From [Mycobacterium] holstebronense (GTDB taxonomy: Bacteria > Actinomycetota > Actinomycetes > Mycobacteriales > Mycobacteriaceae): DNA of 32,000 bases. A program made the translations under genes and the position numbers. The stretch is taken from contig NZ_OY726398.1 of the NCBI RefSeq assembly GCF_963378105.1, forward strand, positions 4,459,230 to 4,491,229, in the 5' to 3' direction. This document shows, in pieces, positions 1 through 23,400 of the stretch. The first letter of the stretch is position 1, and each line of letters starts with the position of its first letter. Under the pieces are notes generated by a model. That model saw nothing but the letters and a program-made list of their open reading frames with translations, did no database searches and was not told the origin of the DNA.

Positions 1-588
1 ACCAAAACCGCCCGCCGAACCACCGACACCACCAATGCCATCGGCCGACGTACCAGCAGCACCACCATCACCGAACCACAAACCACCAGAACCACCAGCA
101 GCCTGCGCCAGCGTCCCACCATCAATACCGTCAGCACCGTTACCGATCAGGATCTGACCGAAACCAAACAGGTTGATAAACGAATTAACCTGCTCACCAA
201 ACGGACTCAGAATCCACGCCTGCCCCAAGTCATGCAACGGCGTGTAGAACAACGAACCGAACCAGTCATCAGCGGCCGCCGAACCCGGCAGATCCGCCAC
301 CGACGCATCAAACGACAGACCCAAATTCGACAGCAGCGGCTCCCACGCCCCCTGGTCGAACAACGTGTCCCACGACGACGCCTGACTCAAATCACCCAAC
401 GCACCAGCCAGATCCGCACCGAACAGGTCAACCACCCAGTCCAGCTCATCAGCATGCGCCACAGGAGCCGCCGACAACGGCGACATCCCAAAGGTCAAAA
501 ACGCCCCAACCGCACTGCTGGCCCCCAACAGTCGCCGGCTACGCCGACCCTGCTGGCCGTTGCCCGAAGTGTTACGCCCTACTGCCAT
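1..588 (-). CDS. Signal-peptide PGRS-like glycine-rich protein; N-terminal 196 codons only, C-terminus runs off the window start
   Basis: Hand translation of the minus strand from ATG 588-586 gives 196 codons with no stop, ending in frame at nt 1. It reads MAVGRNTSGNGQQGRRSRRLLGASSAVGAFLTFGMSPLSAAPVAHA|DELDW...FGQILIGNGADG...GGSGGLWFGDGGAAGTSADGIGGVGGSAGGFG. AGGA (597-600) lies 8 nt upstream of the ATG. The leader is near-identical to that of the 17105-19609 protein. This ORF is absent from the supplied track, presumably because it has no stop inside the window. An alternative in-frame ATG at 639 lacks an SD. Confidence 0.65.
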   Translation of the reverse strand, partial: MAVGRNTSGNGQQGRRSRRLLGASSAVGAFLTFGMSPLSAAPVAHADELDWVVDLFGADLAGALGDLSQASSWDTLFDQGAWEPLLSNLGLSFDASVADLPGSAAADDWFGSLFYTPLHDLGQAWILSPFGEQVNSFINLFGFGQILIGNGADGIDGGTLAQAAGGSGGLWFGDGGAAGTSADGIGGVGGSAGGFG

Positions 589-675: not shown

Positions 676-2430
676 TCAGCCGTAGAAGCCCAACGCCGCC
701 GCGATCTGGTTCGGAATGTCGTTGAGCCACTCCGACGCCACGCCGAAGAAGTTGCCGTTGATGCCCAGCACGCCCAGGTCGGACAGCCCCAGCCCGTCGA
801 TCAGGCCGTTGATATCGAGGCTGCCCAGGCCGAGGTCGGTGAGCAGCGAGTTGATCGTGCCGTCGAGGCCGAGGTTGGCAACGATGGTGTCCAGGTCGTA
901 GTTGTCCAGGCCGATCCAGCCGAGGAGGGTGCCCAGCGTGGGGTCGCCCAGCACGCTGGTCATCAGGTCGGTGATGAACTGGTCCAAGTGCACCTCGTCC
1001 AGGCCCAGACCACCCAGGATGCTCTCGATGGAGACACCGCCCAACAGGCTGTTGATGAACTCATCGAGAGACTGGTTGTCCAGGCCCAGGCCGGAGAGAA
1101 TGCCGGCGATCGAGATGCTGCTCAGCCCGAGGCGGTCGATGAACATGTCGATGTCGATGTTGTTCAGGCCCAGGTTGTTGAAAATCGACTGGATGTAGAT
1201 GTCGTTCAGGCCGAGGCTGTCGATCAGGCCGGACAGGCTCAGGCTGCCCATGCCCCAGTCCTCGAACAGGGTGAGCAACGTGGTGTCGGTCAGCCCCAGC
1301 CCCGCAACGACACTCGTGAAGAGTTCGGTCAACGTCGGGTCGAAGCCCCAATCGGTGAGGAACTGCCCCAGAGTGACATTGCCGGTCAGGTCGCCCAGAC
1401 CGTTGAACAGGTCCTCCAGCGTGAAGTCACCGATGCCCATCGCATCGACCCCTTGGATCACGGTGACGTCGTAGAGGTGCAGGTTCTGGAGAGTTACGCC
1501 AACGGTGTTGGTGCCCATCACCGCGCCGAGAGTGGGGTTGCCGGCCTTCTCGAGGAGGCTGGCCTGGTCGGGGGCGAGAATCCCCAACGGGGTGTCACCC
1601 AGGTTGGCGTAAGCCGGATCTGGGCTGGGAAGCGTGTACAGCAAGGCCTGAACCGGGATGTCGTTTACCGGAGTGTCGGGAGGGTAGCCCATGGTGTTCT
1701 CGCCGATCGGCATCTCCTGGAAGATGTCCCCGAGCGTCGTGTTGCCGTAATCGCCGATGAAGTCGCTCAAGGTGGCGCCGGGCGGGAACATGGAAAGCAG
1801 CATGTCCGTCAACGGAGTGTTGGCGCTGATGTCCGGTCCGAGGAAACCGTCGTTGAGCAGGTCAATCAGCGTCTGGTCGCCGTACTCGCCCAACATTCCC
1901 GCGAGCGCGCCGACGGTGACGGTGCCGAGGCCCATCTGCTCGAAGAAGTCGGTCAGCGGGGGGTCGCCGAACGAATCGGTCAGCAATCCGCCGATAGTCC
2001 AGGTCGGGTCGATCAAGCTGGCCAGGGACTCGTTGCCCTGAGCGCCGAGCAGGTCCTTGATCAGGCCACCGACGGTGGCGTCGTCCCCGCCGACGAAGCT
2101 CAGCACGAGTTCGGACAGGCTGGGGTTGCCGATGTCGGTCTGGTTGAGCAGGGCGATCAGCAGGCTGGCGACCGAGTCGCCGGGCTCGATGCCACCGAGG
2201 CTCTCCAGCAGCTCAGCGATGGTGGGGTTGCCGATGCCCGCCTCGTTGAAGAGGCCGATCAGCAACTCGGAGAGCGACTGAGTGCCGATGCCCATGTCGT
2301 TGAGCAGGTCCACCGGCGTCATGTGTCCGAGGCCGAGCCCGTCGAGCAGGTCGATGATCAGCGTTTCCAGCGGAACATCGCCGATACCGGCCTGCGACAG
2401 CAGGTCGGTGATGGTGGTGTCGCCCATGCC
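676..2430 (-). repeat. In-frame array of 14-residue G-[LI]-[GDNS]-x-x-[ST]-[LI]-x-x-[LI]-[LI]-x-x-[LM] units, often alternating with an 18-residue variant
   Basis: Read from the translation, e.g. GIGDVPLETLIIDLLDGL / GLGHMTPVDLLNDM / GIGTQSLSELLIGLFNEA / GIGNPTIAELLESL, and near the C-terminus GLNDIYIQSIFNNL / GLNNIDIDMFIDRL / GLSSISIAGILSGL. The boundaries are approximate. Confidence 0.7.
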
Positions 2431-3081
2431 GGACAGCTCGACCACGTCACCGATGTTGAAGTTGGCGTCGATCGGCTGCCCGGGGGTCAAGACACCGTTG
2501 AACAACGGGAAGTAGGCGCCCCCGAAGTCGACACCGCTGCTGCCGTTGAGGAAAGCGTCCAACAGCGTCGCCGGCGCGCCGATCAGAGCCGAGAACGACT
2601 TCATCGGGTCGGTGAAGATGTTGTTGACGATCTCGTCCATGATCTGCTGGAACGCGTTGCCCATGGTCACCCAAGGGCCAATGGCGGCCAGCAGCGAGTT
2701 CAGCCACAGCGGCATCTGCAGGTCGATGTCGACGGGGAAGGGGAAGGCCTGGACGCCGATGGTGGGCATCGAGTTGGTGAAGATGTTGATGACATCCGGG
2801 ATGCCGTTGATCGCCTCTTGCGGGTTCGCGAAGATGTGCTGCAGCAGACCCCACATGTCCACGGAGTTCTGGTTCAGCGCCTGCAGGTTCGCGATGGTGT
2901 TCTCGAACAGGTCGGTGTAGGGCGAGAAGAAGCCCGACGTGAGCGCAACACCGCGCTGCTCGACCGTGGCGAGCTGGTGCTGAAGCTGCGGCAGGTTCGA
3001 GGCCACGGGGGGAACCGCGACCAGGCCCACCCCGACGACAGCCAGGCCGGTGGTGACGTATGGACGAAGTGTTTGCTGCAT
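676..3081 (-). CDS. Acidic N-terminally anchored repeat protein (GLG 14/18-residue repeats), paralogue A; function unknown
   Basis: The track ORF is 676-3138. I prefer ATG 3081 (MQQTLRPYVTTGLAVVGVGLVAVPP...) because GGGAGGG (3086-3092) sits just upstream and the paralogue starts at the equivalent residue. The third codon position is C-rich, typical of mycobacteria. It has one N-terminal hydrophobic segment, a non-repeat domain of about 200 aa, then repeats to the C-terminus (...GNFFGVASEWLNDIPNQIAAALGFYG*). Confidence 0.8.
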   Translation of the reverse strand: MQQTLRPYVTTGLAVVGVGLVAVPPVASNLPQLQHQLATVEQRGVALTSGFFSPYTDLFENTIANLQALNQNSVDMWGLLQHIFANPQEAINGIPDVINIFTNSMPTIGVQAFPFPVDIDLQMPLWLNSLLAAIGPWVTMGNAFQQIMDEIVNNIFTDPMKSFSALIGAPATLLDAFLNGSSGVDFGGAYFPLFNGVLTPGQPIDANFNIGDVVELSGMGDTTITDLLSQAGIGDVPLETLIIDLLDGLGLGHMTPVDLLNDMGIGTQSLSELLIGLFNEAGIGNPTIAELLESLGGIEPGDSVASLLIALLNQTDIGNPSLSELVLSFVGGDDATVGGLIKDLLGAQGNESLASLIDPTWTIGGLLTDSFGDPPLTDFFEQMGLGTVTVGALAGMLGEYGDQTLIDLLNDGFLGPDISANTPLTDMLLSMFPPGATLSDFIGDYGNTTLGDIFQEMPIGENTMGYPPDTPVNDIPVQALLYTLPSPDPAYANLGDTPLGILAPDQASLLEKAGNPTLGAVMGTNTVGVTLQNLHLYDVTVIQGVDAMGIGDFTLEDLFNGLGDLTGNVTLGQFLTDWGFDPTLTELFTSVVAGLGLTDTTLLTLFEDWGMGSLSLSGLIDSLGLNDIYIQSIFNNLGLNNIDIDMFIDRLGLSSISIAGILSGLGLDNQSLDEFINSLLGGVSIESILGGLGLDEVHLDQFITDLMTSVLGDPTLGTLLGWIGLDNYDLDTIVANLGLDGTINSLLTDLGLGSLDINGLIDGLGLSDLGVLGINGNFFGVASEWLNDIPNQIAAALGFYG

Positions 3082-3130: not shown

Positions 3131-4800
3131 TTAGCCACTGAGCACCGCCGTGATCTGGTCCCCTAGGCCGTCAAGCCAGTAGGACATGGAGCCCCAGAAC
3201 TCGCCGATCTGCGCGTTGATCACGGTCATATCCCCGAGCCCCAGGGACGCCAGGAGCTCGTCGACGGTCTGGAGGCCGAAGTCGCCGAGCAGCGCACTGA
3301 CCGTCGAGGTCCCGAACAGCGAGTCGATCAACTCGTTGAGGGTCTGGTCGCCCAGGCCCAGGGCGAGCATCTGGTCGGCGATGGTGCTGATGCCGAAGAA
3401 CTGGTCGAACAGGTCGCTGAGCGACTGACCGCCGAGGCCGAAGTCGTTGAGCATGTCGTTGACGGTCTGCGGGCCCAGCGCCTGACGGATGATGTCGTCG
3501 AGGTGCATGCTGCCCAGCCCACCGTCGTCCAGAGCATTGGCGACGGTCTGGTCACCGAAGGTCTGGTTGAGCAGTTCACTCATGGTCTGGTTGCCCAGAC
3601 CCGACTCAGCGAGCATGTCGATGATCGTCTGGTCAGCGGGCACCAGTTGGTCGATCAGGGCCGACAGGGTGGTGTCGCCCATGACGCCGAGCAGCGAAGA
3701 GAGCGGCGCGTCGGGCATGCCGGCCAGCACCAGGTCGGTCAGGGTCTGATCGGCCATGCCCGAGTCGGTGAGCATCTGACCCAGGGTCATCGAGAAGTTC
3801 GTCGAGATCATCTCGTTGAGGGTCATCTCGCCCATCGGGCCGAGCATCGAGATGAGGGGGTCGTTCAACTGGTCGCCCAAGAAGGAGGCGATGGTCGTAC
3901 CCGCCAGGGAAGCCGACAGCAGAGCGTCACCGCCCTTGTCCAGCGGGGTCATGCCGGTAGCGGCGAGCATGTCGTTGACCGTGAGGTTGCCGGTGATGTA
4001 GGACAGGTTGCCGAGGATGGTGCCCACCGACAGATTGGTGATACCCAAAAGGTCGGTGACGTCCCCGACCGTCACCGCGCCGAAGCCCGCGAAACCCATG
4101 ACCTCGGCGACTGTGGTGTCGCCGTAGGAACCGAGTACCACCGAAACCAACTGGCCGATGTCAGCGTCGGCAAGGCCGGCCGAACTGAGCAGGTCCATGA
4201 TCGTCTGATTGCCCAGGCCCAGCCCGCCGAGCAGCGAGGTGATGAACTCATGGGTGGTCTGGGTGCCGAGGCCCGTGGCGTCGAGCATGTCCGCCGCGCT
4301 CTGACCGCCGAGGCCCAGCGCGTCCACCGCTGTTTGCAGCAGGCCGTTGAGTGTCAGGTCGCCGGCGCCGATGTCAGCGATGAGCTCGTTGACGGTCGGG
4401 TCGCCGATGCCCATCGCGTTGAGCACGTCCATGCCCAGGTCGGCCAGCTTGAGGTCGGCCAGACCGACGTCGCCGGCGATGTCGACGATCGTCGGGTTGT
4501 CGAAGCCCAGTGCGTTGGTGAAGTCGATGGCGATATCGGCGACCTGAACGTCGCCGATACCCAGCATGTCCATGAGTTCGGCGATGGTGGGGTTGCCGAT
4601 GCCCACCGCGTCGAAGATCGTGCTCAGCACGCTGGAAACCTCAAGGCTGCCCAGGCCGAGGGCGTTGATGACGTCGACGGGGGTGTCGTCACCCAGTCCG
4701 ACGCTGTCCAGCAGGCCGGTCAACATGCCGGCGACCTCAAGCGTGCCGATGCCGGTCTGGTCGAGCAGGCTGGCGATGGTCTGGTCGCCGATGTTGAGGT
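3131..4800 (-). repeat. In-frame 14/18-residue GLG repeat array (about 32-residue super-repeat)
   Basis: Read from the translation of paralogue B. The boundaries are approximate. Confidence 0.7.
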
Positions 4801-5437
4801 TGTTGGCCAGCTCCTCAGCGGTCTGGTCGATGATGAGGTTCTGACCGGGGACCAGGATGCCCTGGAACGCAAGAACGCTGCTGCCGGCGATGTCGACAGT
4901 GCTGGTGCCGTTCAGCCACGCGTCGACCAGACGCGGGAACGCGGTGAAGATGGCCGCGAACGGGTCCAGCGGATCATTGGGGTTGAAGATCTGGTTGAGA
5001 ATGTCCTGCATCGCGTCATTGACCGTGACCAGCGGGCCGATGATGCCCATCCCGATGGTCAGGATCGGCGAGAGCAGGACCATCAGCGGGTCGGAGCCGC
5101 TGATCGACGGCATGATCGACGTCAGGAAGTCGAAGACCTCCGGCAGCCGCGACAGCGAGCTCGGGTCGCTGAAGATCTGCTCCAGCAGGTTTCCCCAGCC
5201 GTTGTCGGAGCCCATCGCCGCCAGGTTGGTAGCGGTGTTGCTGAACAGGTCCTGCCACGGTCCGAAGAAATCAGCTGTGAGCTTCACAGGATGGTGCTGG
5301 ACCAACTCATGGGCCTGGCGAGGCTCAACTTGGGGCCGCAGCACCGCCGCGGGAACTGCCCCGTTGACCGCGATCAACGCGGCACCCGCGATCGCGACAC
5401 CGGGGGTGACGTACGGGCGAAGCGCGAGCTGCATCAT
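3131..5437 (-). CDS. Acidic N-terminally anchored repeat protein (GLG 14/18-residue repeats), paralogue B; function unknown
   Basis: 768-aa ORF starting MMQLALRPYVTPGVAIAGAALIAVNG, with AGGAG (5441-5445) immediately upstream; the start may be the second ATG at 5434. It shows the same domain order as paralogue A and a clean 14+18 alternation: GIGNPTIAELMDML / GIGDVQVADIAIDFTNAL / GFDNPTIVDIAGDV / GLADLKLADLGMDVLNAM / GIGDPTVNELIADI. The C-terminus GEFWGSMSYWLDGLGDQITAVLSG* parallels that of A. A 49-nt gap to gene A suggests an operon. Confidence 0.8.
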   Translation of the reverse strand: MMQLALRPYVTPGVAIAGAALIAVNGAVPAAVLRPQVEPRQAHELVQHHPVKLTADFFGPWQDLFSNTATNLAAMGSDNGWGNLLEQIFSDPSSLSRLPEVFDFLTSIMPSISGSDPLMVLLSPILTIGMGIIGPLVTVNDAMQDILNQIFNPNDPLDPFAAIFTAFPRLVDAWLNGTSTVDIAGSSVLAFQGILVPGQNLIIDQTAEELANNLNIGDQTIASLLDQTGIGTLEVAGMLTGLLDSVGLGDDTPVDVINALGLGSLEVSSVLSTIFDAVGIGNPTIAELMDMLGIGDVQVADIAIDFTNALGFDNPTIVDIAGDVGLADLKLADLGMDVLNAMGIGDPTVNELIADIGAGDLTLNGLLQTAVDALGLGGQSAADMLDATGLGTQTTHEFITSLLGGLGLGNQTIMDLLSSAGLADADIGQLVSVVLGSYGDTTVAEVMGFAGFGAVTVGDVTDLLGITNLSVGTILGNLSYITGNLTVNDMLAATGMTPLDKGGDALLSASLAGTTIASFLGDQLNDPLISMLGPMGEMTLNEMISTNFSMTLGQMLTDSGMADQTLTDLVLAGMPDAPLSSLLGVMGDTTLSALIDQLVPADQTIIDMLAESGLGNQTMSELLNQTFGDQTVANALDDGGLGSMHLDDIIRQALGPQTVNDMLNDFGLGGQSLSDLFDQFFGISTIADQMLALGLGDQTLNELIDSLFGTSTVSALLGDFGLQTVDELLASLGLGDMTVINAQIGEFWGSMSYWLDGLGDQITAVLSG

Positions 5438-14441: not shown

Positions 14442-14474
14442 CGCCGCACCGGGGCCGCCCCTACGCTGATAGCA

Positions 14475-14484
14475 CTGATATCAG
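14475..14484. promoter_or_regulatory. Perfect 10-bp palindrome CTGATATCAG overlapping the vapB SD; candidate antitoxin operator
   Basis: The palindrome is read directly from the sequence. It overlaps AGGAGG (14483-14488), which lies 9 nt before ATG 14498. Autoregulation of type II TA operons at palindromes is the general rule, but this site is untested. Confidence 0.3.
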
Positions 14485-14497
14485 GAGGTGAGCGCTG

Positions 14498-14722
14498 ATG
14501 GCTGACATTCTCATCCGAGGGTTGTCAGACACGACCGTCGCGCAAATCGACACCGAGGCGGCTGCCCAGGGACTCTCCCGCAACGAATACCTGCGCCGTA
14601 GGTTCGAAGCGGAGCGGTCAGCCGATGGCGGCGCTCGGCTGACAGTCGCGGACCTGCGTCGTGCCGCCGAAGCTGCTAGGGATCTCGACGATCCGAACGT
14701 GATGGAAGCTGCCTGGCGGTGA
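14498..14722 (+). CDS. vapB: Ribbon-helix-helix antitoxin (VapB-type, FitA/Arc-like)
   Basis: The 74-aa protein starts MADILIRGLSDTTVAQIDTEAAAQGLSRNEYLRRRF, an RHH pattern. It has a strong SD and a 4-nt overlap with the PIN gene. Confidence 0.75.
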   Translation: MADILIRGLSDTTVAQIDTEAAAQGLSRNEYLRRRFEAERSADGGARLTVADLRRAAEAARDLDDPNVMEAAWR

Positions 14723-15123
14723 CGACCTGGCTGATCGACAAGTCCGCCTACACGCGACTCGGGGAGTCTCCTGATGCACAGGAATGGGCGGATCGGATCG
14801 GACGCGGCGTGGTCCGCATCAGCACCGTGACGCGACTCGAGATCGGCTATTCCTTTCACAATGCGGAACAAGCACGCCACGAAACCCTCTCGCCCCCACT
14901 GTCTCTCATGCCGTTGGAGTATGTGACTCCGGCGGCCGAGAACCGCGCAATTGCGACTCAACTGCTGCTGGCCGATCGCGGCCAACATCGAGCACCGTCC
15001 GTTCCTGACCTTCTTGTGGCTGCTATAGCAGAAACCGCCGGCCTAACGGTCCTGGCGCTGGATAGGGGCTACGAGTTGATCGCCGACCTAACCGGACAAC
15101 CCATCGACCGGCTTCGGCTCTGA
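14719..15123 (+). CDS. vapC: PIN-domain toxin VapC
   Basis: GTG start within GTGA, 134 aa. Conserved acidic positions are in the usual PIN order: LIDKS, RLEIGYS, VPDLLVAA, LALDRGYE. Confidence 0.8.
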   Translation: MTTWLIDKSAYTRLGESPDAQEWADRIGRGVVRISTVTRLEIGYSFHNAEQARHETLSPPLSLMPLEYVTPAAENRAIATQLLLADRGQHRAPSVPDLLVAAIAETAGLTVLALDRGYELIADLTGQPIDRLRL

Positions 15124-15132
15124 CCGCGGGGT

Positions 15133-15496
15133 TCAGTCGCCGTCGCAGCGGTAGGCGCTGATCACGTCGGGATCGGGATCGGGATCGATGCCGAGGCCCG
15201 ATCCGTGCGGCACGGTGATCCGCCCGTCCGTCGTCGGCGTCGCGACCCAGACACAGCGGCGTGATGAGATCGACCAGCGCGTGGGCGGCCAGGCTGGCAC
15301 CGCGCCGGCCGAACGCCTCGGCCCAACCCACCATGCTGTCGTCGGTGGTCTCCTTGACCAGTAGTGAGTCCGCGCTCGACAGCTTTTCACTCCACAGCGT
15401 GGCGCCGGGCAGGCCCGGTTTGAGCGGAACCCGCAGCGGGACGACCTCGATTCCGGCAATGCTCCTGGCTATCCATGTATCCATGCATGTATACAC
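15133..15496 (-). pseudogene. Remnant of an enolase-superfamily (mandelate racemase / muconate lactonizing enzyme) gene with a large internal deletion and frame change
   Basis: One minus frame gives an MR/MLE-like N-terminus: IAGIEVVPLRVPLKPG...SLLVKETTDDSMVGWAEAFG...LVDLITPLCLGRDA. A different minus frame gives the typical C-terminus: GRITVPHGSGLGIDPDPDPDVISAYRCDGD*. The junction lies near 15225-15240, and about 250 residues of barrel domain are missing. Confidence 0.6.
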
Positions 15497-15506
15497 GGAT
15501 ACATGG
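15473..15506. promoter_or_regulatory. Inverted repeat CCATGTATCC-N14-GGATACATGG overlapping the second vapB start codon; candidate operator
   Basis: The arms at 15473-15482 and 15497-15506 are perfect complements. The spacer ATGCATGTATACAC itself contains the palindromes ATGCAT and GTATAC. The right arm contains ATG 15503. Confidence 0.35.
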
Positions 15507-15748
15507 CCACCAAGACGATCTCGATCGACATCGAGGCATACGAGCGGCTCAGAGCAGCTCGCCGCTCACCGGACGAATCGTTCTCCCGTGTCATCAAGCG
15601 CGCGCACTGGCGCAACGAGGCTCGTACCGCGGGCGCACTGCTGGCAGCGTTGGCCGCGCTGCCGGTTGCCACCGAGGACGAACTCGAACGCCTCGACGAG
15701 GCGCAGCGGATGGACTTCCCCCCGGATGATCCGTGGCGCCCCGCGTAA
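15503..15748 (+). CDS. vapB: Antitoxin of the VapB/DUF217-like type (putative antitoxin family common in archaea)
   Basis: The 81-aa protein starts MATKTISIDIEAYERLRAARRSPDESFSRVIKRA, matching the M.KTI.I.d.vYe.L...k....SFSevI pattern of that family. It overlaps the downstream PIN gene by 16 nt. Confidence 0.7.
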   Translation: MATKTISIDIEAYERLRAARRSPDESFSRVIKRAHWRNEARTAGALLAALAALPVATEDELERLDEAQRMDFPPDDPWRPA

Positions 15749-16137
15749 GCGTCGACACGACGTTCCTTATCGACTTGCGGCGAGAACAGGCTGCCGGGAC
15801 TCCGGGTGGGCCGGCGCATCGGTTCTTAGGCGAGTCGCCCGATACCGAATTGTTCCTCTCGACCGTTGCACTCGGTGAATTTGCCGCGGGGTTCGAGCGC
15901 AGCGACGATCCGATCATCGTCGGCGTGCGCGAACGCCACGTCCTCGTTCCGGTCGACGATGCTGTCGCGCTCACCTATGCGGAAGTCTCCCAGGATCTGC
16001 GCCGCCGAGGGAACATGATCGGCAGCAATGACCTATGGATCGGCTGCACCAGCCTTCGTCTCGGAATCCCGGTTCTGACCCACAACGTCGCGGACTTCCG
16101 CCGGATCCAGGGACTCGGAGTCATCTCCTACCGCTAA
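15733..16137 (+). CDS. vapC: PIN-domain toxin VapC (second, unrelated module)
   Basis: GTG start, 134 aa. PIN acidic positions are VDTTFLID, ALGEFAAG, SNDLWIG and THNVADF. Confidence 0.8.
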   Translation: MAPRVSVDTTFLIDLRREQAAGTPGGPAHRFLGESPDTELFLSTVALGEFAAGFERSDDPIIVGVRERHVLVPVDDAVALTYAEVSQDLRRRGNMIGSNDLWIGCTSLRLGIPVLTHNVADFRRIQGLGVISYR

Positions 16138-16186: not shown

Positions 16187-16849
16187 TCAGGCGATCAGGT
16201 CGCCCAGGCCCAGATCGGGAAGCACGACGTCGAAACCGTCCGCGGGCAGCGCGGTGTCAAAACCGTCTGCAGGGAGCACGCCGTCAAGGCCAACCGGAGT
16301 GAATACGTCATCCCAACTGCCGGCGTGGAATATGTCGCCCAAGCCGGTCAGGCCGATGGCCTCACTGGAGCCGGGATCGAGCAATTCACCGGTGAACCAG
16401 TTGCGGGTTTCATACCAGTCCAAGAGGTTGCCGGCCAGATTCGATACGGCGTCGAAGGCCGTGCCCAACAAGGTGACGGTGTCCACGACACCCTGCCAGC
16501 CTTCGGTGATCAGCAGCAGTGGCGCGCCGAACACCAGCGTCAGTGGGATAACCACGAACAACTCGCCAAGCGCCTCGAGGCTGATGACGAATGGGAACAG
16601 CGGATTGCCCGGGTCGTCCAGGAACGGGATGATCCAGCTCAATCCGGTTAGCGCACCGACGATGTCCATCAAGCTGGAATCGGCGGACAGTGCGGTCAGT
16701 TCGACCGGGGTGAAGACCGCCGCTGACGGAAGAGTCACCGGGGACGCTGCGGCGGGAATAGGTGTGACGGCGCCGGCCGTCAACGCGACCACACCAGCGG
16801 TTGTAACGCTGGCGATGGCCCGAGAATATCCGTTCGACGCAGTCCACAT
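16187..16849 (-). CDS. Small acidic membrane protein; possible repeat-less relative of the GLG-repeat proteins
   Basis: The minus frame has C-rich third positions and hydrophobic segments (AIASVTTAGVVALTAGAVTPI; LGELFVVIPLTLVFGAPLLLI) and ends ...LPDLGLGDLIA*. The start is uncertain: ATG 16849 is preferred and ATG 16951 is possible; neither has a clear SD. The opposite-strand ORF 16035-16991 is S/P/R-rich junk. Confidence 0.6.
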   Translation of the reverse strand: MWTASNGYSRAIASVTTAGVVALTAGAVTPIPAAASPVTLPSAAVFTPVELTALSADSSLMDIVGALTGLSWIIPFLDDPGNPLFPFVISLEALGELFVVIPLTLVFGAPLLLITEGWQGVVDTVTLLGTAFDAVSNLAGNLLDWYETRNWFTGELLDPGSSEAIGLTGLGDIFHAGSWDDVFTPVGLDGVLPADGFDTALPADGFDVVLPDLGLGDLIA

Positions 16850-17046
16850 AGCCAGTGATTGTATTGCAGTGCAGCGAGATCTTCGAATTGAAAACCGAGT
16901 ACTGGGACAAATCGGATTGCGGCACCTGAGAAATACGTTGCTCTGCTGCATCCGACGCGTGCGCAGTCGTGCTTCTTGCTCCAGATCGTAAGCGCGGCTA
17001 TGTCTTTCGGAACACCCGCAGTCGGTCGGCTAGTTCCGATAGACGC

Positions 17047-17092
17047 CACAAAAGAAACACCCCGCACATTCGTGCGGGGTGTTTCTTTTGTG
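17047..17092 (-). terminator. Perfect 21-bp stem / 4-nt loop hairpin immediately downstream of the 17105-19609 gene
   Basis: The stem arms are 17047-17067 (CACAAAAGAAACACCCCGCAC) and 17072-17092 (GTGCGGGGTGTTTCTTTTGTG), with loop ATTC. The hairpin lies 13 nt after the TAG at 17105-17107 in a locally low-GC spacer. Confidence 0.6.
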
Positions 17093-17104: not shown

Positions 17105-19609
17105 CTACGGCTGGCCGACGGGCGGCTCCGGAGCGGTACCCGGGGTACCGGCCTGGCCGGGGGCACCGTCGCTCTCAGCATCCGGGCCCACGCCACCGGC
17201 GCCGCCGTCGCCACCGGCGCCTCCCACGCCGTCAGCACCCGGGGTGTCACCGGCGCCACCGTTGAGGCCATCATCACCCAGCGCCGGGGTGACGACATCG
17301 CCACCGTTACCGCCGTTGCCGGCATTGCCGCCCTGGACCTCACCCGCGCCACCAGCGCCGCCGTCGCCACCAGCGCCACCCTGGACGCCGTCGATCGGGC
17401 CAGAGGTGTTCGGGAGGTTAAGCACAGCGTTCGGGTCGCCCCAGCGGATGTCGCCGCCGGCGCCGCCGTTACCACCGACACCGCCGTTACCGCCGACGCC
17501 GCCGGTGCCGTCGGTGTTCGCCAAACCTGCGCCACCGGCACCACCGTCGCCGGCCTCGCCACCGTTGGAACCAACGGCATTGAGGTCGTTACCACCGTTG
17601 CCGCCGGCACCACCGTTACCACCGGTGGCACCGCTGCCGCCGGCCCCACCGGCGCCACCGGCACCGGTGACATTGCCTGGCGACCCCACCGGGTTCTCAA
17701 CGGCAACAGCGGAAGTGATGTCGGGTGTGTCGCCACCGTTACCGCCGGCACCACCGTTGCCGCCATCGCCGATCTGGCCATCGCTGCCGTTTGTCGCTCC
17801 GAGGCCAGCAGCGCCACCGTCGCCACCTGCACCACCGGCACCACCGTTGCCGGAGCCGCTGAAGCCATGGATGCCGCCGTTCTCGCCATGAATCCCGAAG
17901 CCGCTGACCCCGCCGTCACCGCCGACAGCACCGCTGCCGCCGAGACCACCGTTGCCGCCGTTGCCGGTCTGGCCACCGCCATTACCACCGGCTCCACCGG
18001 AACCACCGGCACCACCGTTCTCACCATTGCCGGCCGGACCGCCGTCACCGCCGGCATCGGGTTCCACCGTTCCATCGGCACCGTTGGCGCCGGCAGTGCC
18101 GTTACCGCCGTTACCGCCGTTGGCGCCGTCAGCGTCCACACCCGCGGCACCTGCGTTGGCGCCAGCACCACCGGCCGCACCACCGGCCGCGGCCGCACCG
18201 CCGTTACCGCCCGCGCCACCGTTACCGGCGTTACCGCCAGTCCCAACGCCGTCCGCGCCGACGCCGCCGACACCACCGAGCCCGCCGTTTCCGCCGACGC
18301 CACCGTCGCCGTTGGCACCAACCACACCATCGACCGAGCCCTTACCGGCCGCGCCACCGACACCACCGACACCACCGATCGCGCCGGCGCCACCATTACC
18401 ACCGGTACCGCCGTCGCCATCGCCATTATTGGCGAAGCTGCCCTCGGCGCCGGCGATACCGGCACCACCGTTGCCGCCGGCACCACCGACGCCGGCCGCG
18501 CCACCGTTACCTGCGACGCCCACGGTGTGAACACCGAAGAACCCACCGCGGCCACCGTTACCGCCGACACCACCGTTACCGCCGACACCACCGTTACCGG
18601 CGTTGCCGCCGTTGCCGTCCTGGGTGTCCGCGCCTGCAGCCCCGTTACCACCGATGCCACCGACGCCACCGACGCCACCGGTACCACCGGCACCGGAGTT
18701 GCCGAAGAGGCCGGCCACACCGCCGTTACCGCCCGCGCCACCGTTACCGGCCGTCCCGCCAGCCAGGCCGACGCCACCCGCGGCACCGGTACCGCCGGTA
18801 CCGCCGGTGCCACCCGCGCCACCGTTGCCGATCAGGAAGCCACCGTTACCACCGACACCACCGGCGAAACCAATCACTCCGATGTCGCCGATGCCGCCCT
18901 GGCCACCGGCGCCACCGTTGCCCATGAAGAAGCCGCCGGCGCCGCCGTCGCCACCGAGGCCGAAGAAGCTGCCGCCGTCGCCACCGTTGCCGATGAGGCC
19001 CGCGTTGCCACCGTCAAGGTTGAAGGTGGTCGAAGCGAACTCGTAGGTGCCGTTCTCGATGTCAGCCAGGGTGACCGCGTTACCACCGTCCATCAGGACC
19101 GCGCCGTTGGCGCCGATCACGTCACCCTCGGCGTTGACAAACGCGCCGCTACCGCCGTCGCCGAACAGGAAGCCACCACCGGATGCAGCGTGGTAGACCA
19201 GGTCGCCGTCACCGTTGATGCTGACGTAGGCACTGTCGCCGTTGTCGAAAATGCCGTCGAGTCGCAGACCACTGTCGATCAGGAACTGACCGATGCCGTA
19301 AATCGGCTGGTAGATGACCAGATTGAGGGTGTTCGCTACGAGCGCGTTGAGGTCGTCCAGCGGGGTGGTGGCCGCCGAGCCGGCCACGTCGCCATCGAAC
19401 GCGCCAAAGCCGGACCAGTCAAACCCCGACGTGTCGGCCGACGGCAGCTCGATCCAGCTGAACAGGTCACCAAAGTCGAAATCGGCGCTAGCCGGCGCCG
19501 CCATGATCGGCGTCATGCCAAAGGCCAGGAAGGCGCCCACGGCACTGGTAGCGCCCACGACGCGGCTCACTTTGCGTTTGCCGTTCTTGTCAGCGAAGCG
19601 GTAAGACAT
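17105..19609 (-). CDS. Signal-peptide PGRS-type glycine-rich protein (no PE domain)
   Basis: The 834-aa protein has GAGGGG (19615-19620) 5 nt upstream of ATG 19609. The N-terminus is [42 protein letters not shown]|DFDFG. A non-repeat region of about 190 aa is followed by GGAGG/GGNGG/GGTGG repeats, ending ...[12 protein letters not shown]. Confidence 0.85.
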
Positions 19610-19966
19610 GGATTCCCCTCAGATGGATTGACTGGTCACAGTTGACGACGACGTAAGTAACTTAGCCAGCGTTAAGCTAACAGAAGTGTGATGGGCCGGC
19701 AAACGTATGCACATAATTGCTGAGAAATTTTTTAGGCAAGTCACCTGACCAGCAATTGAGCTGCAGAACCCCGCCCCAGGTAGTGAGGCTCTCCCGGCCA
19801 TCAACCCGGAGCTGGCCGACCGGATCCGTTGCCCCGAGGCGCCGGCTGTGCTTTTTATCAGACTGACGGGAACAGCGCCTGCTCACTTCGTCACACAGCG
19901 CGCCGCGGCGCCGGTGGGCCTGAGACCGGCAGGATCCCGCTCCCGGGCCCTGATTAGGCTTCCCGG

Positions 19967-20377
19967 GTGGATGAGACGAGCAGCGGTCCTTTGCGCCTGT
20001 CGACACAGGTGTGGCGTTTCCTGCTGACCGGGGCACTGTCGGCGGTGGTGGACTTCGGCCTATACCTGGTGCTGTACCTGGGGGCAGGCGTGCCGGTCGA
20101 CATCGCCAAGGCAGGCAGCTTCATCGCCGGCACCACCACCGCGTACCTGATCAACCGGCGGTGGACGTTCCAGTCCACGGCGCACGCCGGGCGGTTCATC
20201 GCGGTGATGGCGCTGTATGCGCTGACGTTCGCGGCCCAGGTGGGGATCAACCACCTGGTGCTGGAGCTGCTGGATTACCAGCGGTGGGCGCTGCCGGTGG
20301 CGTTCGTGGCGGCGCAGGGCACCGCGACCGTGATCAACTTCGTGGTGCAGCGGACGCTGATCTTCCGGGCGGGCTGA
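19967..20377 (+). CDS. GtrA-family small membrane protein (Rv3789 orthologue)
   Basis: The sequence ...[56 protein letters not shown]...[15 protein letters not shown] matches the GtrA signature. The start is GTG 19967 or, by length comparison with the 121-aa Rv3789, GTG 20009. Confidence 0.85.
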
Positions 20378-20446: not shown

Positions 20447-23400
20447 CTATATCCCCGGCTGGTTCGCCCCGTTCACCCCGGGAGCGTCCACACCGGACAC
20501 CTGGTCACCGTATTGGATCACCAGGTTGGTGTCTTCGCCGTTCCCGCCGACGTAGCCACTTCCGGTTCCGCTACCGCCGTTGCCGCCGGTGGAGCTGGAA
20601 TCAGTGACCGTCGATGCGGTACCGGCTCCGTCGTTGCCGTAGGCACCCAGCCGGGCCTGGCCACCGTCGCCACCTTCGCCGCCGTCGATGCCATCGCCGC
20701 CACGACCACCCACAGACGTTCCGTCGGCGACGTTGCCGATGTCACCACCGGTGACGATGCTCGCCTTGCCGCCGTCGCCGCCCTGGCTGTTCGCACCCGT
20801 AGCGTCACCGCCGGCACCGCCGGTGGACGTGCCGCTGGACATGCCTCCCGGTCCACCGCCAAGCCCGCCGTTGGTCAGCTTGGAGCTCTGGATGACCGAA
20901 CTACCGCCGTCACCGCCCTGGCTGTTGGCGCCGGTCGCGTTTCCGCCGGCACCACCGGTGGAGTGGCCGTAGCTGATACCGCCGACAGCGCTGGTCGCCG
21001 AGGCGTCACCGGACTCCAACTCACCCCAGCTGCCCTTGCCACCGGTGCCACCGTCGGTGCCGTCGCCGCCGCGGCCGCCCTGGGCGATCGCGTCGTAGCC
21101 GCGGTAGCCGATCGATCCGCCCGGGTTGTCGACCACCAGGTAGCCCGCGCCACCGTCACCGCCGATGCCGTTGTCGCCGGTACCGCCTTCGCCGCCGAGG
21201 GCTTGTGCGGTGGTGATCATCGAGTCGGTGCCGGTAGCCGAAGCAACCGCTTCACCACCGGCGCCACCCTGGCCGCCGTTGGCTGCACTGCCACCGTCAC
21301 CGCCGACGACCTCGACATCGTGGATCTTGGCCCCATCGGTGGCGGCGATGGCGGCGTCGCCACCGTCCGCGGTAGCGCTGCCGCTGCCGCCGGTTACCGA
21401 ACTCTCGGTGATCCAACCGCCGCTGGACGCAGTGGCCGTGGCGTTTCCAGCGCCGCCATCGGCTCCCACCTCCCCCGCTTGGGCGGTCACACCAGCAATG
21501 GTGCTGTTCGCACCGTCAGCGGTGATAGCAGCACTGCCGCCGCTGACGCCTGCTCCAGCGTCGGTTCCAGTGGCGCGACTGCCGGAGATCAAGCCGCCAT
21601 AGGTGGCCTGCACCAGACCGCTGCCGCCTGCTGCGCCGGCCGCACCGTCGCCGCCGGTAGCACTGCTGTTGTAGATGTTGATGCCTGCATCCGCCGGGTC
21701 AGAGCCATTGCTGGTGTGGCCGATCCGGCCCTCACCACCGGCACCACCGTTGACGCCATTGGCACTGTCGCCGCCGTTACCACCGGTCGCCGACCCGTTG
21801 GTGATGCTGCCGCCGTAGCCACCGGAGCTGATCCGGCCGGTACCACCGGCACCACCGGTGTGGCCGACGCCGCTTTCGGTGGTACCCGTACCGCCGTTGC
21901 CACCGTGGGCCGTACCGGTGACGGTGCCACCGCCACCGCTTTGCATGTCAGCACGGATCTGAGCGTCACCGCCGATACCACCGGTGCTGCCGTAGCCAAC
22001 ACCGTCGCCACCGTTGCCGTTGGTGGCTTGACCGCCGGCGTGAGCATCTGCACCGAAGGCGCCCACCTGCGCGTAGAAGGTGTAACTACCGCCCTTGCCG
22101 CCATCGAGACCGTCACCACCGTTACCGCCGGTGACAACAGTGTCCGCGTCCACGGTGGCACCGTCACCGGCGGCGTAAATCCGTCCACCGGAAGCATTTC
22201 CACCGATCCCACCGTGACCCGAGTTGTCCGCGGTGGCGTTACCGCCCGTACCGCCGTAGATGGTGCCGGCAGCCGAACCACCGTCTTGGTAGTACGAGCC
22301 GGTAGCGATACGGGCCGAACCGCCCAGACCACCCACACTGCCGCCGCCGGTTCCGTCACCGCCAACACCGGCCAACGCCTTACCCGTCACATCCCCACCA
22401 AGGTGGGCAGTGTGGTCGTTGGTCTGGTAGATGGTCCACAGCTCCGAGTAACCGCCGGCGCCACCCTTGCCGCCGTCGAACCCGTCACCGCCGTTGCCAC
22501 CGATGGCCTGCGCGTCGTGGACGCTGCCATCCAATTGCGAGGCCACCGACGCATACCCGCCAGCGCCACCCGTACCACCGTTGCCGTCACCGACGCCGGC
22601 GTTACCACCGGTCACGGTCACATTGGTGACGTCGCCACCCAACCGATCCGCCGTCCCGTTATCCGCCGCCGACGGCAGTGTCCCGCCAGCCATGATGTTG
22701 GCCGCACCACCGGCAGCACTATCCGAACCATCACCACCAGTCACGTGGCTGTTGTCGACGTTGCTGGAGTCAGTGGCCACCAGTGATGCGTTGCCACCCA
22801 GCGCGCTTCCGCCGGCACCGCCGTCACCACCGGTGACAGAGCTGTTCGAAACGGAGCTGCCCGAGGAGACGGTCGCCGTGGCCGAACCACCAGCACCGTT
22901 CACACCACCGTTACCGCCATCAACATCAAGACCGTTGACGGTGCCGCCGGTGACCGTGACGGTGGCACCGCCACCGGCCCCGGTGCCCGTACCGGCGTTA
23001 CCACCGGTGAGGTGAGCGTCGGTGACATTTCCGCCGCCGGTCACAGTCAAGCCACCCGAACCACCCAGCGTGGTACCGGTGCTCTCCCCAGCGGTCACCG
23101 AACTGTCAGCGACATGACCACCATCCGTGGTGATCCGCGCCCCCGGACCCTGCTGAGTACCGGCGCTGTTACCACCGGTGACCTGGCTGTTGGTGATGGT
23201 GTCACCCTCACCCCGGGCGATGATCACCGTGTCAGAGGTCACCCGGCCAGCGGCCCCAGGAACCCCGGCACCACCGTCACCACCGGTAGCAGTCACGCCG
23301 GTAACCGATGAGTCCTTACCGAGGGCCTGAACATAGGTGTAACCACCCTGACCGCCCAGGGCCCCGGCACCGGTGCCATCACCACCATCACCAGCGGTCA

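What the first reader, a model, noticed from the sequence alone, without database searches (positions are those of the whole stretch)
17105..19609. PGRS repeat protein with a Sec-type signal peptide in place of the PE domain
The ORF opens with a textbook leader: a basic n-region (KNGKRKVSR), a hydrophobic core ([22 protein letters not shown]) and the site P-A-S-A|D. It is preceded by a good SD. After about 190 non-repetitive residues it becomes canonical GGAGG/GGNGG PGRS repeat.

In the described PE_PGRS families the PGRS repeat is fused to an N-terminal PE domain, whose YxxxD/E motif routes the protein through ESX-5. I see no PE-like sequence in this ORF and no in-frame extension upstream. 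If real, this protein would move PGRS cargo to the cell surface independently of type VII secretion.
Basis: partly seen in the sequence, partly recalled or inferred. Interest (0 to 1): 0.7.

Follow-up and report, generated by a model that had tools for sequence, protein, structure and literature searches.

The report
Signal-peptide PGRS protein, no PE domain
This gene encodes a glycine-rich "PGRS-type" envelope protein that starts with an ordinary export signal instead of the PE domain used by tuberculosis bacteria; it belongs to a large, unstudied gene family of the genus Mycolicibacter, which suggests PGRS proteins can leave the cell without type VII secretion.

Summary
ORF 17105..19609 (minus strand, 834 aa) is intact. 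It has an SD, an in-frame stop 4 codons upstream, and a strong terminator hairpin after its stop.

It opens with a Sec/SPase-I-type leader: n-region charge +5, a 22-aa h-region, and A-S-A|D. No PE domain is detected, even at E<=10.

It is not a one-off. At least 100 relatives were found, all in Mycolicibacter, and they share this leader. The leader core is 70% identical across paralogs, against 34-39% for the mature N-terminus, and A-x-A|D is near-invariant. Synonymous sites in the leader are not conserved, so selection acts on the peptide.

Pfam PGRS (PF21526) hits 56 of 77 relatives and PE hits none. The window copy scores below threshold because an insertion splits the first PGRS unit. Only aa ~199-330 look like a canonical PGRS "sail"; the distal 500 aa are low-complexity.

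The segment before the PGRS repeats is homologous to the PE_PGRS linker.

About one third of paralogs, but not this gene, sit directly behind a GjpA-like mycomembrane porin gene.

NCBI already names relatives "PGRS repeat-containing protein". I found no paper describing their export. Export by Sec is inferred, not shown.

The parts
19615..19620 (-). Shine-Dalgarno-like GAGGGG, 5 nt before the ATG. The in-frame TGA stop at 19619-19621 overlaps it.
   Evidence: Read directly from the sequence. Orthologs have only 3 in-frame codons upstream of the same Met.
17105..19609 (-). Complete CDS, 834 aa plus stop: a leader-type PGRS-family protein.
   Evidence: ORF list; GC3; orthologs 66-78% identical in Mycolicibacter; dN/dS 0.14-0.33.
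19484..19609 (-). Signal peptide, aa 1-42. n-region aa 1-16 (19562-19609, charge +5), h-region aa 17-38 (19496-19561), c-region P-A-S-A (19484-19495). Predicted cleavage is between A42 and D43.
   Evidence: The leader HMM scores 64.6 bits. Across 77 relatives, position -3 is A in 76, -1 is A in 77 and +1 is D in 76; the leader core is 70.5% identical. AF2 models a helix at aa 11-32.
19181..19483 (-). Mature N-terminus, aa 43-143: an acidic/aromatic segment, then the linker helix (aa 83-112, ..[16 protein letters not shown]..) and a degenerate GRPLI-like site (GIFDNG).
   Evidence: AF2 helix 83-112 with pLDDT 74-87. Family consensus is Y.P[LI]H...Q.WI.S..G...D..IN...LIGNG. The module is homologous to the linker of a PE_PGRS protein.
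19142..19180 (-). First PGRS unit, aa 144-156 ([13 protein letters not shown]). It is the most conserved mature segment of the family.
   Evidence: 76% mean pairwise identity; G145, G146, G150, G152, G153 and G155 are invariant. It matches PF21526 positions 15-46.
19016..19141 (-). Insertion specific to this ortholog group, aa 157-198. It splits the Pfam PGRS unit.
   Evidence: Alignment A1. PF21526 positions 15-46 map to aa 140-171 and positions 43-68 map to aa ~200-226.
18620..19015 (-). PGRS core, aa 199-330. It has GGxGGxGG triplets with hydrophobic doublets ([26 protein letters not shown]).
   Evidence: AF2 pLDDT is 70-87 (residues 201-320) with no helix or strand assigned. The only significant Foldseek/PDB hits are polyproline-II-helix bundle antifreeze proteins: 7jjv_A at E=5e-4, prob 0.99.
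17189..18619 (-). Distal Gly/Ala/Asn/Asp-rich low-complexity region, aa 331-807. It has few aromatic residues and many GGxGx[DN] motifs.
   Evidence: Composition and motif counts. AF2 pLDDT is mostly below 50. No Pfam or NCBIfam hit.
17108..17188 (-). C-terminal Pro/Gly/Thr-rich tail, aa 808-834 (..[20 protein letters not shown]). It has no hydrophobic anchor and no sorting motif.
   Evidence: Similar G-x-P-G-rich ends occur in most complete paralogs.
17047..17092 (-). Intrinsic-terminator-like hairpin (21-bp stem, 4-nt loop, U-rich 3' side), 12 nt after the stop codon.
   Evidence: RNA fold: dG -45.4 kcal/mol, z = -9.06, and 0 of 200 shuffles fold as well.
19967..20377 (+). Divergent upstream neighbour: a GtrA-family membrane protein. 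It serves as the synteny anchor.
   Evidence: Pfam PF04138 at 3e-19. It holds the same position in 11 related loci.
16187..16951 (-). Downstream neighbour, 220-254 aa, with a hydrophobic N-terminus and unknown function. It is syntenic in the orthologous loci.
   Evidence: tblastn finds 55-69% identity in L002-L007 and L009. No Pfam or NCBIfam hit. Not related to GjpA (hhalign probability 7%).
1..588 (-). Second member of the same family, cut by the window edge. It has the leader (..RRLLGASSAVGAFLTFGMSPLSAAPVAHA|DELDW), the canonical linker and the first PGRS unit.
   Evidence: Leader HMM 65.9 bits; sequence.

Best explanation
The gene encodes a pre-protein of a Mycolicibacter-specific multigene family. 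In this family the PGRS module (linker helix plus polyglycine-II "sail" repeats) is preceded by a conserved, cleavable Sec-type signal peptide instead of a PE domain.

Proposed mechanism:
1. The basic n-region and 22-residue h-region target the unfolded, very acidic glycine-rich chain to SecYEG/SecA. This step is inferred.
2. Signal peptidase I cuts after A-S-A42 and leaves Asp43 as the new N-terminus. This step is inferred from the invariant A-x-A|D.
3. The 67-kDa mature protein (pI ~4) folds outside the plasma membrane. Its N-proximal PGRS core (aa ~199-330) forms a polyglycine-II sandwich whose Phe/Leu/Ile edge can sit in the mycomembrane or cell envelope. The long Gly/Asn/Asp-rich distal part is exposed. 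This step is inferred by analogy with the published PGRS model.

Export therefore needs no PE domain and, by inference, no ESX-5.

The unusually strong peptide-level conservation of the leader across paralogs suggests it does more than generic Sec targeting. What that extra role is remains unknown.
For: Gene reality and start:
- Intact ORF, SD, upstream in-frame stop and terminator.
- Coding-type GC3.
- Purifying selection and a conserved start codon.
- Conserved GtrA / gene / p254 synteny.

Signal peptide:
- Charge, hydrophobicity and A-x-A features.
- Position -1 is A in 77 of 77 relatives, -3 is A in 76 of 77, and +1 is D in 76 of 77.
- No Cys and no RR in this copy.

No PE domain:
- Pfam at E<=10 on the first 213 aa finds no PE.
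- None of 77 relatives hits PE, even with all upstream in-frame sequence included.

PGRS nature:
- PF21526 hits 56 of 77 relatives.
- Period-3 Gly and GGxGG motifs.
- AF2 is confident for aa 201-320, assigns no helix or strand there, and the only significant PDB fold hits are polyglycine/polyproline-II bundles.

Linker homology with a PE_PGRS protein.

Leader under peptide-level selection: 70% amino-acid identity, but only 0.37-0.43 third-position identity at identical four-fold-degenerate codons.

PGRS behind other signal peptides in GH5, YncE and DUF2599 proteins, including in fast growers.

Literature:
- Mycolicibacter has ESX-5 (PMC4779608).
- It is listed with 0 pe_pgrs genes (PMC12209268, Table 1).
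Against: - No dedicated predictor (SignalP, TatP) could be run and there are no experimental data. Cleavage, the Sec route and the final location are inferences.
- The 22-residue h-region is long enough to act as an uncleaved anchor.
- This copy fails the Pfam PGRS cut-off: 11.6 bits against 27.
- 60% of the protein is modelled at pLDDT below 50.
- The Foldseek matches are weak (TM 0.2-0.4, rmsd ~12 A).
- No pathway is known that takes Sec substrates into or across the mycomembrane.
Confidence: 0.7

Rival explanations
1. The leader is an uncleaved signal anchor. The protein stays tethered to the plasma membrane by residues 17-38, with the glycine-rich part in the periplasm.
For: The h-region is 22 residues long and AF2 models a continuous helix at aa 11-32. 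The strong sequence conservation of the hydrophobic core would fit a helix that makes specific contacts in the membrane.
Against: Pro at -9 and -4 and A-x-A at -3/-1 are invariant or near-invariant, and Asp at +1 occurs in 76 of 77 relatives. This is the signature of a signal peptidase I site, not of an anchor.
Confidence: 0.12
2. Export is by the Tat pathway, with the leader acting as a twin-arginine signal peptide.
For: 60 of 77 relatives have an RR pair in the n-region, and 17 have it directly before the h-region. The h-region is only moderately hydrophobic and is rich in Gly, Ser and Thr.
Against: The window protein has no RR (KRKVSR). In the family, the residue before the invariant Arg varies (S, N, D, G, H, Q, K, R). 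A 790-aa glycine-rich chain with no cofactor has no obvious need to fold before export.
Confidence: 0.05
3. It is still a type VII (ESX-5) substrate that uses an unrecognised signal, or is co-secreted with a partner.
For: Mycolicibacter species carry ESX-5 and many PE/PPE genes (PMC4779608; PMC12209268). The linker is homologous to that of PE_PGRS proteins.
Against: No PE or WxG helix-turn-helix is present. The only YxxxD lies at residues 3-7 in the n-region and is absent from orthologs. A classical signal peptide is not a feature of known T7SS substrates; this last point rests on established knowledge.
Confidence: 0.05
4. Most of the protein is not a PGRS sail. It is a generic disordered, glycine-rich secreted or cell-wall protein, and only a short PGRS-like stub is present.
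For: PF21526 is below threshold on this copy. aa 331-834 have almost no aromatic residues and pLDDT below 50. phmmer against PDB sequences finds only compositional collagen matches.
Against: The N-proximal 130 repeat residues align to PF21526-positive paralogs at about 60% identity and are modelled confidently. GG-x triplet periodicity continues to the C-terminus.
Confidence: 0.15
5. It is a non-functional remnant: a 5'-truncated PE_PGRS pseudogene or a spurious ORF in GC-rich repeat DNA.
For: Long overlapping ORFs exist in other frames of the repeat.
Against: The start codon, leader and length (772-980 aa) are conserved in at least 7 species. dN/dS is 0.14-0.33 with saturated dS. Synteny, SD and terminator are all present.
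Confidence: 0.02

Closest known systems
PE_PGRS proteins of slow-growing mycobacteria (e.g. M. tuberculosis PE_PGRS33/Rv1818c)
   Same: Both have glycine-rich GGxGGxGG repeats with hydrophobic doublets, an acidic surface, and a helical linker followed by a (GRP)LIGNG-type motif before the repeats. Both have expanded into a multigene family with a highly conserved N-terminal export module and a polymorphic repeat part. The linker is homologous.
   Different: This protein has no PE domain, no YxxxD/E motif and a classical signal peptide instead. The host genus is listed as having no pe_pgrs genes. This copy's first PGRS unit is split by an insertion, and its distal two thirds lack the hydrophobic edge.
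"PGRS repeat-containing protein" (NCBI name) / Pfam PF21526 in non-PE architectures
   Same: Relatives P0005, P0007, P0009 and others are so named and share the leader, linker and PGRS. This is the database family the gene belongs to.
   Different: These are annotation labels only. I found no paper on them, and no export route or function has been described. The window copy itself does not reach the PF21526 cut-off.
GH5 endoglycoceramidase/cellulase-PGRS, DUF2599-PGRS and YncE-PGRS proteins of Mycolicibacter, Mycolicibacterium and Mycobacteroides
   Same: They have a signal-peptide-like N-terminus, the same Y.PLH..WI.S linker and the same PGRS module.
   Different: They carry a C-terminal enzyme or beta-propeller domain and a short PGRS. 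The window protein is PGRS-only with a long low-complexity tail.
PGRS-domain proteins of M. smegmatis noted in a 2025 review (PMC11939664)
   Same: They are PGRS sails in non-pathogenic species where a PE domain is doubtful.
   Different: The review leaves their N-termini and localisation unresolved. Here the N-terminus is defined and conserved as a signal peptide.
Polyglycine/polyproline-II helix bundle antifreeze proteins of springtails (PDB 7jjv, 2pne, 3bog)
   Same: They are the only significant structural matches of the AF2 models. They are glycine-rich with period-3 repeats.
   Different: They are unrelated in origin and function. They are about 80-125 aa with a low TM-score, so this is a fold analogy only.
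Family-specific conserved signal peptides (YSIRK-G/S signal peptides of Gram-positive surface proteins; ESPR of autotransporters). This comparison rests on my own knowledge.
   Same: The signal peptide sequence is conserved far beyond what Sec targeting requires, and it is attached to one class of surface-protein cargo.
   Different: There is no sequence similarity, and no experimental evidence here for a special sorting role.

Membership tests
PE_PGRS (PE family, ESX-5 substrates) | N-terminal PE domain (Pfam PF00934) | tested here: not met
   No hit at E<=1 on the whole protein or at E<=10 on aa 1-213. None of 77 relatives hits PE, even with upstream in-frame sequence included. An in-frame stop lies 4 codons upstream.
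PE_PGRS (PE family, ESX-5 substrates) | YxxxD/E secretion motif after a helix-turn-helix | tested here: not met
   The only Y...[DE] is at residues 3-7 inside the n-region, and it is not conserved in orthologs.
PE_PGRS (PE family, ESX-5 substrates) | Helical linker ending in the GRPLI(GNG) motif before the repeats | tested here: inconclusive
   The linker helix is present (aa 83-112) and the module is homologous to that of a PE_PGRS protein. However, the window copy has GIFDNG where most paralogs have LIGNG.
PE_PGRS (PE family, ESX-5 substrates) | ESX-5-dependent secretion | not testable with these tools
   This needs eccC5 or espG5 mutants.
PGRS repeat domain (Pfam PF21526; polyglycine-II sandwich) | PF21526 score at or above the gathering cut-off (27 bits) | tested here: not met
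   The best score is 11.6 bits (aa 140-171), plus 7.2 bits (aa ~200-226), because an insertion splits the unit. 56 of 77 relatives do pass at E<=0.01.
PGRS repeat domain (Pfam PF21526; polyglycine-II sandwich) | Gly-Gly-X triplet repeats with Gly period 3 | tested here: met
   66 GG.GG motifs, of which 38 are GG[AN]GG. The Fourier peak lies at period 2.9-3.1, 22-25 times the mean. CGGCGGCAA occurs 4 times in the gene.
PGRS repeat domain (Pfam PF21526; polyglycine-II sandwich) | Regular hydrophobic/aromatic edge residues (Phe, Trp, Leu) between triplet runs | tested here: inconclusive
   They are present at aa 144-330 (4 canonical [LIFVMW]{2}G.GG.GG sites). Beyond aa 330 there are only 0-4 aromatic residues per 100 aa.
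PGRS repeat domain (Pfam PF21526; polyglycine-II sandwich) | Polyglycine-II sandwich fold | tested here: inconclusive
Sec / signal peptidase I signal peptide | Basic n-region, hydrophobic h-region, small residues at -3 and -1, no lipobox Cys | tested here: met
   Charge +5, a 22-aa h-region (KD maximum 1.77), P-A-S-A|D and no Cys. The site is conserved in 76-77 of 77 relatives.
Sec / signal peptidase I signal peptide | Predicted by a trained classifier, or cleaved in vivo | not testable with these tools
   SignalP and TatP were not available, and there are no proteomic data.
Tat signal peptide | Twin-arginine motif at the n/h boundary | tested here: not met
   The window copy has KRKVSR-VVG with no RR. 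RR is adjacent to the h-region in only 17 of 77 relatives.
Mycolicibacter leader-PGRS family (defined here) | Leader R..G......AFLAFG..P....PA.A|D, followed by the Y.P[LI][HY] linker and GG[FL][LW]FGDGG | tested here: met
   The leader HMM scores 64.6 bits. Alignments are A1 and A2. Orthologs are 66-78% identical in conserved synteny.
GjpA-porin / leader-PGRS two-gene cassette (seen in paralogs) | GjpA-like gene (NCBIfam NF033942) ending within ~400 nt upstream on the same strand | tested here: not met
   The target and its orthologs have a divergent GtrA gene upstream instead. 30 of 95 other family members have the cassette.

The most novel reading that the evidence does not exclude
The conserved leader marks a dedicated, type-VII-independent route for PGRS proteins. 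Sec carries them across the plasma membrane. A cognate GjpA-like mycomembrane channel then inserts or translocates them at the outer membrane, in the manner of two-partner secretion. That channel is encoded directly upstream of about one third of family members, and 31 of 35 GjpA-like genes seen are followed by a leader-PGRS gene.

On this reading, linker plus PGRS is an old Sec-exported envelope module of Mycobacteriaceae. The PE_PGRS genes of slow growers arose when a PE domain replaced the leader.
Probability: 0.2. Interest if true: 0.85.

Novelty: new variant of a known kind. Interest (0 to 1): 0.58.

Why it matters
PGRS proteins are treated in the tuberculosis literature as PE-domain fusions exported by ESX-5 and typical of pathogenic slow growers. 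What PGRS domains do, and how they reach the mycomembrane, is still open.

A genus that has ESX-5 and many PE/PPE genes is listed as having no PE_PGRS. It nevertheless carries dozens of PGRS genes behind a conserved signal peptide, and these share the PE_PGRS linker. This matters in three ways:
1. The PGRS module is not tied to type VII secretion.
2. It points to a likely evolutionary precursor of PE_PGRS.
3. It offers non-pathogenic organisms in which PGRS export, folding and function can be studied with ordinary Sec tools.

The frequent pairing with GjpA-like porin genes also gives a concrete candidate for the unknown step across the mycomembrane.

Tried and rejected
- Exact-sequence look-up of the protein found no record, so the source genome was not identified. 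The best relative is 78% identical, from Mycobacterium sp. UM_WGJ.
- A profile search with the leader alone returned only 23 short contig-end fragments from Mycolicibacter. It could not show which cargos the leader carries. A first attempt failed because the query was too short.
- phmmer against PDB sequences gave only collagen chains. I rejected these as compositional matches.
- Pfam and NCBIfam on the neighbouring giant glycine-rich ORF, on p254 and on the two 770-800-aa ORFs gave nothing.
- I tested whether p254 is a GjpA relative and rejected it (hhalign probability 7%).
- I rejected Tat export, a T7SS YxxxD motif (residues 3-7, not conserved) and a lipoprotein (no Cys).
- I rejected gene conversion or an RNA element as the cause of leader conservation. 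Third-codon positions are no more conserved there than elsewhere.
- The simple terminator scan missed the hairpin. Direct folding found it.
- Literature searches for "PGRS repeat-containing", "PGRS-containing protein", PF21526, "PGRS-like" and PGRS plus endoglycoceramidase found no papers.
Full report
**1. The observation**

The ORF sits at exactly 17105..19609 on the minus strand, starts with ATG and encodes 834 aa.
- GAGGGG lies 5 nt upstream of the ATG.
- An in-frame TGA lies four codons upstream, so the reading frame cannot be extended.
- The 357 nt up to the divergent GtrA gene (19967..20377; Pfam PF04138) contain nothing PE-like.
- Twelve nucleotides after the stop there is a perfect 21-bp hairpin with a U-rich 3' side (dG -45 kcal/mol, z = -9).

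In this 68% GC window the repeat DNA is open in several frames, so the frame needs support. Three results give it. GC3 is 0.79 in the leader and 0.82 in the N-terminal part. Orthologs start at the same Met. dN/dS against seven orthologs is 0.14-0.33 with dS of 0.5-1.6. The gene is real, intact and under purifying selection.

**2. The N-terminus**

Residues 1-42 read [16 protein letters not shown] / [22 protein letters not shown] / PASA, followed by Asp43. The n-region has net charge +5. The h-region is 22 residues long. Small residues sit at -3 and -1. There is no Cys and no twin arginine. AF2 models residues 11-32 as a helix.

I could not run SignalP. The strongest evidence for a cleaved signal peptide is comparative and is given in section 4.

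Pfam finds no PE domain at E<=1 on the whole protein or at E<=10 on the first 213 residues. NCBIfam finds nothing.

**3. The repeat part**

Residues 201-834 are 46% Gly, 14% Ala and 9% Asn. There are 66 GG.GG motifs, and Gly has a period of about 3. The historical 9-bp PGRS consensus CGGCGGCAA occurs 4 times in the gene. It occurs 24 times in the window against 1 expected.

The mature protein is 792 aa with pI about 4.05. It has 69 Asp+Glu against 4 Lys+Arg.

Pfam's PGRS model (PF21526) stays below threshold on this copy. Model positions 15-46 match aa 140-171 and positions 43-68 match aa ~200-226. A 42-residue insertion specific to this ortholog group therefore splits the unit.

Hydrophobic doublets of the LIGNGG / FFMGNGG type, and aromatic residues generally, stop at about aa 330.

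AF2 with a 63-sequence alignment gives pLDDT 70-87 for aa 201-320 and assigns no helix or strand there. From about aa 390 onward pLDDT is almost entirely below 50; aa 331-390 is mixed (43-69). A second model of aa 44-340 reaches pLDDT 69.7 and pTM 0.63.

With both models, the only significant Foldseek hits in the PDB are polyproline/polyglycine-II helix bundle antifreeze proteins (7jjv_A: E = 1.3e-3 and 5.2e-4). This agrees with the published polyglycine-II "sail" model of PGRS (PMC9436101), but TM-scores are low.

So "canonical PGRS" holds for roughly aa 144-330. The distal 500 residues are a glycine-rich low-complexity extension of unknown structure.

**4. A large family, not a one-off**

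A scan of one genome per species returned at least 175 relatives. The 76 best loci are all from Mycolicibacter, the M. terrae clade. Several paralogs occur per genome, with at least 7 each in the complete genomes SMC-11 and SMC-14.

Upstream in-frame sequence is usually only 3-60 codons, too short for a PE domain.

In an alignment of 77 members the leader is the best conserved part:

| Segment | Mean pairwise identity |
|---|---|
| Leader core (aa 16-43) | 70.5% |
| Next 80 mature residues | 34-39% |

R16, G19, A26-G31 (AFLAFG), P34 and P39 are at least 90% conserved, and L28 and P34 are invariant. Position -3 is Ala in 76 of 77, -1 is Ala in 77 of 77, and +1 is Asp in 76 of 77.

At identical four-fold-degenerate residues, third codon positions agree in only 37-43% of pairs in the leader. 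That is no more than elsewhere. The conservation therefore acts on the peptide, and is not due to gene conversion or an RNA element.

Pfam finds PGRS in 56 of the 77 and PE in none.

A profile search of 5.8 billion proteins gave 842 hits. Of the top 120, 110 carry PF21526 and only one also carries PE. NCBI names many of them "PGRS repeat-containing protein".

The same linker plus PGRS also occurs behind signal-peptide-like N-termini in three other architectures. These are GH5 endoglycoceramidase-like enzymes, DUF2599 proteins and YncE proteins. Some are from fast-growing Mycolicibacterium, and a GH5 example from Mycobacteroides abscessus has no recognisable signal peptide in the deposited sequence.

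**5. The "non-repetitive 190 residues"**

They contain the family's linker, with consensus Y.P[LI]H...Q.WI.S..G..VD..IN....LIGNG..GT....GG.GGL.FGDGG. AF2 models it as a long helix (aa 83-112 here).

The same module follows the PE domain in a PE_PGRS protein found in the search (P0102). Without the repeats, it is 47% identical over 53 residues to a leader-type paralog (pairwise E = 7e-14).

A full HMMER scan with the linker of the window's second family member found 63 cluster representatives. Of these, 28 have PGRS and 2 have PE. Most of the rest begin with leader-like signal peptides.

Leader-PGRS and PE_PGRS therefore share a homologous linker+PGRS unit and differ in the export device in front of it.

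**6. Context from the literature**

- M. terrae complex species possess ESX-5 (PMC4779608).
- A 2025 table lists M. terrae and M. engbaekii ATCC 27353 with 42/26 ppe genes, 12/11 pe genes and 0 pe_pgrs genes (PMC12209268). Two of my loci (L007, L033) come from that very M. engbaekii strain.
- A 2025 review noted PGRS-domain proteins in M. smegmatis and left their N-termini and localisation open (PMC11939664).
- I found no paper describing signal-peptide PGRS proteins.

**7. Mechanism**

The best-supported reading is Sec targeting, cleavage by signal peptidase I after Ala42, and folding of the PGRS core outside the plasma membrane. The protein would then associate with the cell envelope or mycomembrane through its hydrophobic edge, as proposed for PE_PGRS. 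No PE domain is needed and, by inference, no ESX-5.

What is shown is the sequence architecture, its conservation and the absence of PE. The route, the cleavage and the final location are inferred.

The rivals are less likely. They are an uncleaved anchor, Tat, cryptic T7SS dependence, a largely disordered glycine-rich protein, and a pseudogene. They are scored in the Rival explanations section.

**8. An unexpected lead**

I clustered the flanking genes of all loci. A ~400-aa protein family lies immediately upstream and on the same strand as leader-PGRS genes in 22 loci, often as tandem [X]-[PGRS]-[X]-[PGRS] arrays.

X matches NCBIfam NF033942 "outer membrane porin GjpA" at 343-480 bits against a cut-off of 100 (NCBI name). 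GjpA is the channel-forming cell-wall protein of Gordonia jacobaea (Jimenez-Galisteo et al. 2017, cited in PMC9854905).

The association is strong in one direction:
- 30 of 95 leader-PGRS ORFs have a GjpA-like ORF ending within 400 nt upstream.
- 31 of 35 GjpA-like ORFs are followed by a leader-PGRS ORF.

The sample is biased towards PGRS loci, but the tight adjacency and shared orientation are not forced by the sampling.

The target gene and its orthologs lack this partner. The window does hold a second family member at its left edge (1..588). Two 770-800-aa genes precede it (679..3081 and 3134..5434). They share only the GjpA N-terminal ~70 residues and then consist of LG-rich repeats.

This suggests, without proving, a porin-assisted step at the mycomembrane.

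**9. Verdict**

It needs three corrections.
- The gene is one member of a large family that NCBI already labels.
- Only part of it is canonical PGRS.
- Surface exposure and independence from type VII secretion are untested.

Relative to the described PE_PGRS system it is a new variant of a known kind. Its interest is moderate to high because it separates PGRS from type VII secretion and offers a testable route, and a candidate partner, for PGRS export.

Noticed in passing
L017, L023, L024, L026, L027, L034, L039, L040, L042, L045, L046, L049, L052-L056, L060, L062, L067, L069 (e.g. L042:4729-5925 followed by 5929-8733): A GjpA-like "outer membrane porin" gene (NCBIfam NF033942, 343-480 bits) lies directly upstream and on the same strand as leader-PGRS genes, often in tandem cassettes. 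31 of 35 GjpA-like ORFs are followed by a leader-PGRS ORF, and 30 of 95 leader-PGRS ORFs have such a partner. The target gene does not.
   Followed up: partly
window 1-588 (-): A second member of the leader-PGRS family, cut by the window edge. It has the canonical leader (..GASSAVGAFLTFGMSPLSAAPVAHA|D), the canonical YTPLH..WILS..LIGNG linker and the first PGRS unit.
   Followed up: partly
window 679-3081 (-) and 3134-5434 (-): Two adjacent 800-aa and 766-aa genes lie upstream of the second family member. Their first ~70 residues (MQQTLRPYVTTGLAVVGVGLVAVPPVA..) match the GjpA family (hhalign 98%). The rest is made of acidic Leu/Gly-rich ~12-residue repeats (..GLGDQTLNELIDSL..) with no Pfam or NCBIfam hit.
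   Followed up: partly
window 20447-32000 (-): A giant glycine-rich ORF of more than 3829 aa runs off the window end, so its N-terminus is unseen. It has PGRS-like GGxGG arrays, a long middle section of T/V-x-T-GG-type repeats and 19 copies of CGGCGGCAA, with no Pfam hit. Its C-terminus has counterparts upstream of GtrA in L002 and L003.
   Followed up: partly
window 16187-16951 (-): A 220-254-aa protein with a hydrophobic N-terminus and an acidic Gly/Leu/Asp C-terminus lies directly downstream of the target. It is syntenic in 7 orthologous loci (55-69% identity). It has no family hit and is not related to GjpA.
   Followed up: partly
A2 alignment columns for aa 16-43 of the target (all 77 loci): The signal peptide is the most conserved segment of the family (70% identity, against 34-39% for the mature N-terminus), while its synonymous sites are not conserved. 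No explanation was found for why a Sec leader should be under such sequence-specific selection.
   Followed up: partly
window 5892-7916 (-); also L023, L024, L038, L039, L043, L044, L053, L054, L060: A FadD-like AMP-binding enzyme (PF00501 plus a DIP2-like domain) recurs near leader-PGRS/GjpA cassettes in 10 loci that belong to different paralog groups.
   Followed up: no
window 8062-16137: Housekeeping context resembling the mycobacterial arabinogalactan region: a class-V aminotransferase, a DUF6541 membrane protein, an ABC ATPase, an ABC-2 permease and a VapB/VapC (PIN) toxin-antitoxin pair at 15503-16137. The PGRS genes appear inserted around the conserved GtrA gene.
   Followed up: no
L009, L016, L025, L027, L048 (and protein records P0009, P0083): Many family members in draft genomes switch into Arg/Pro/Ala-rich out-of-frame translation or contain runs of N. 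This points to frequent frameshifts or assembly errors in these GC-rich repeats. Database proteins of this family are mostly partial for the same reason.
   Followed up: no
L077:913-2034 (protein P0102); proteins P0168 and P0180: Rare proteins from metagenomes combine a true PE domain with the full Y.PLH..I.S linker and PGRS. They may be intermediates between leader-type and M. tuberculosis-type PE_PGRS. Their organisms were not identified.
   Followed up: no
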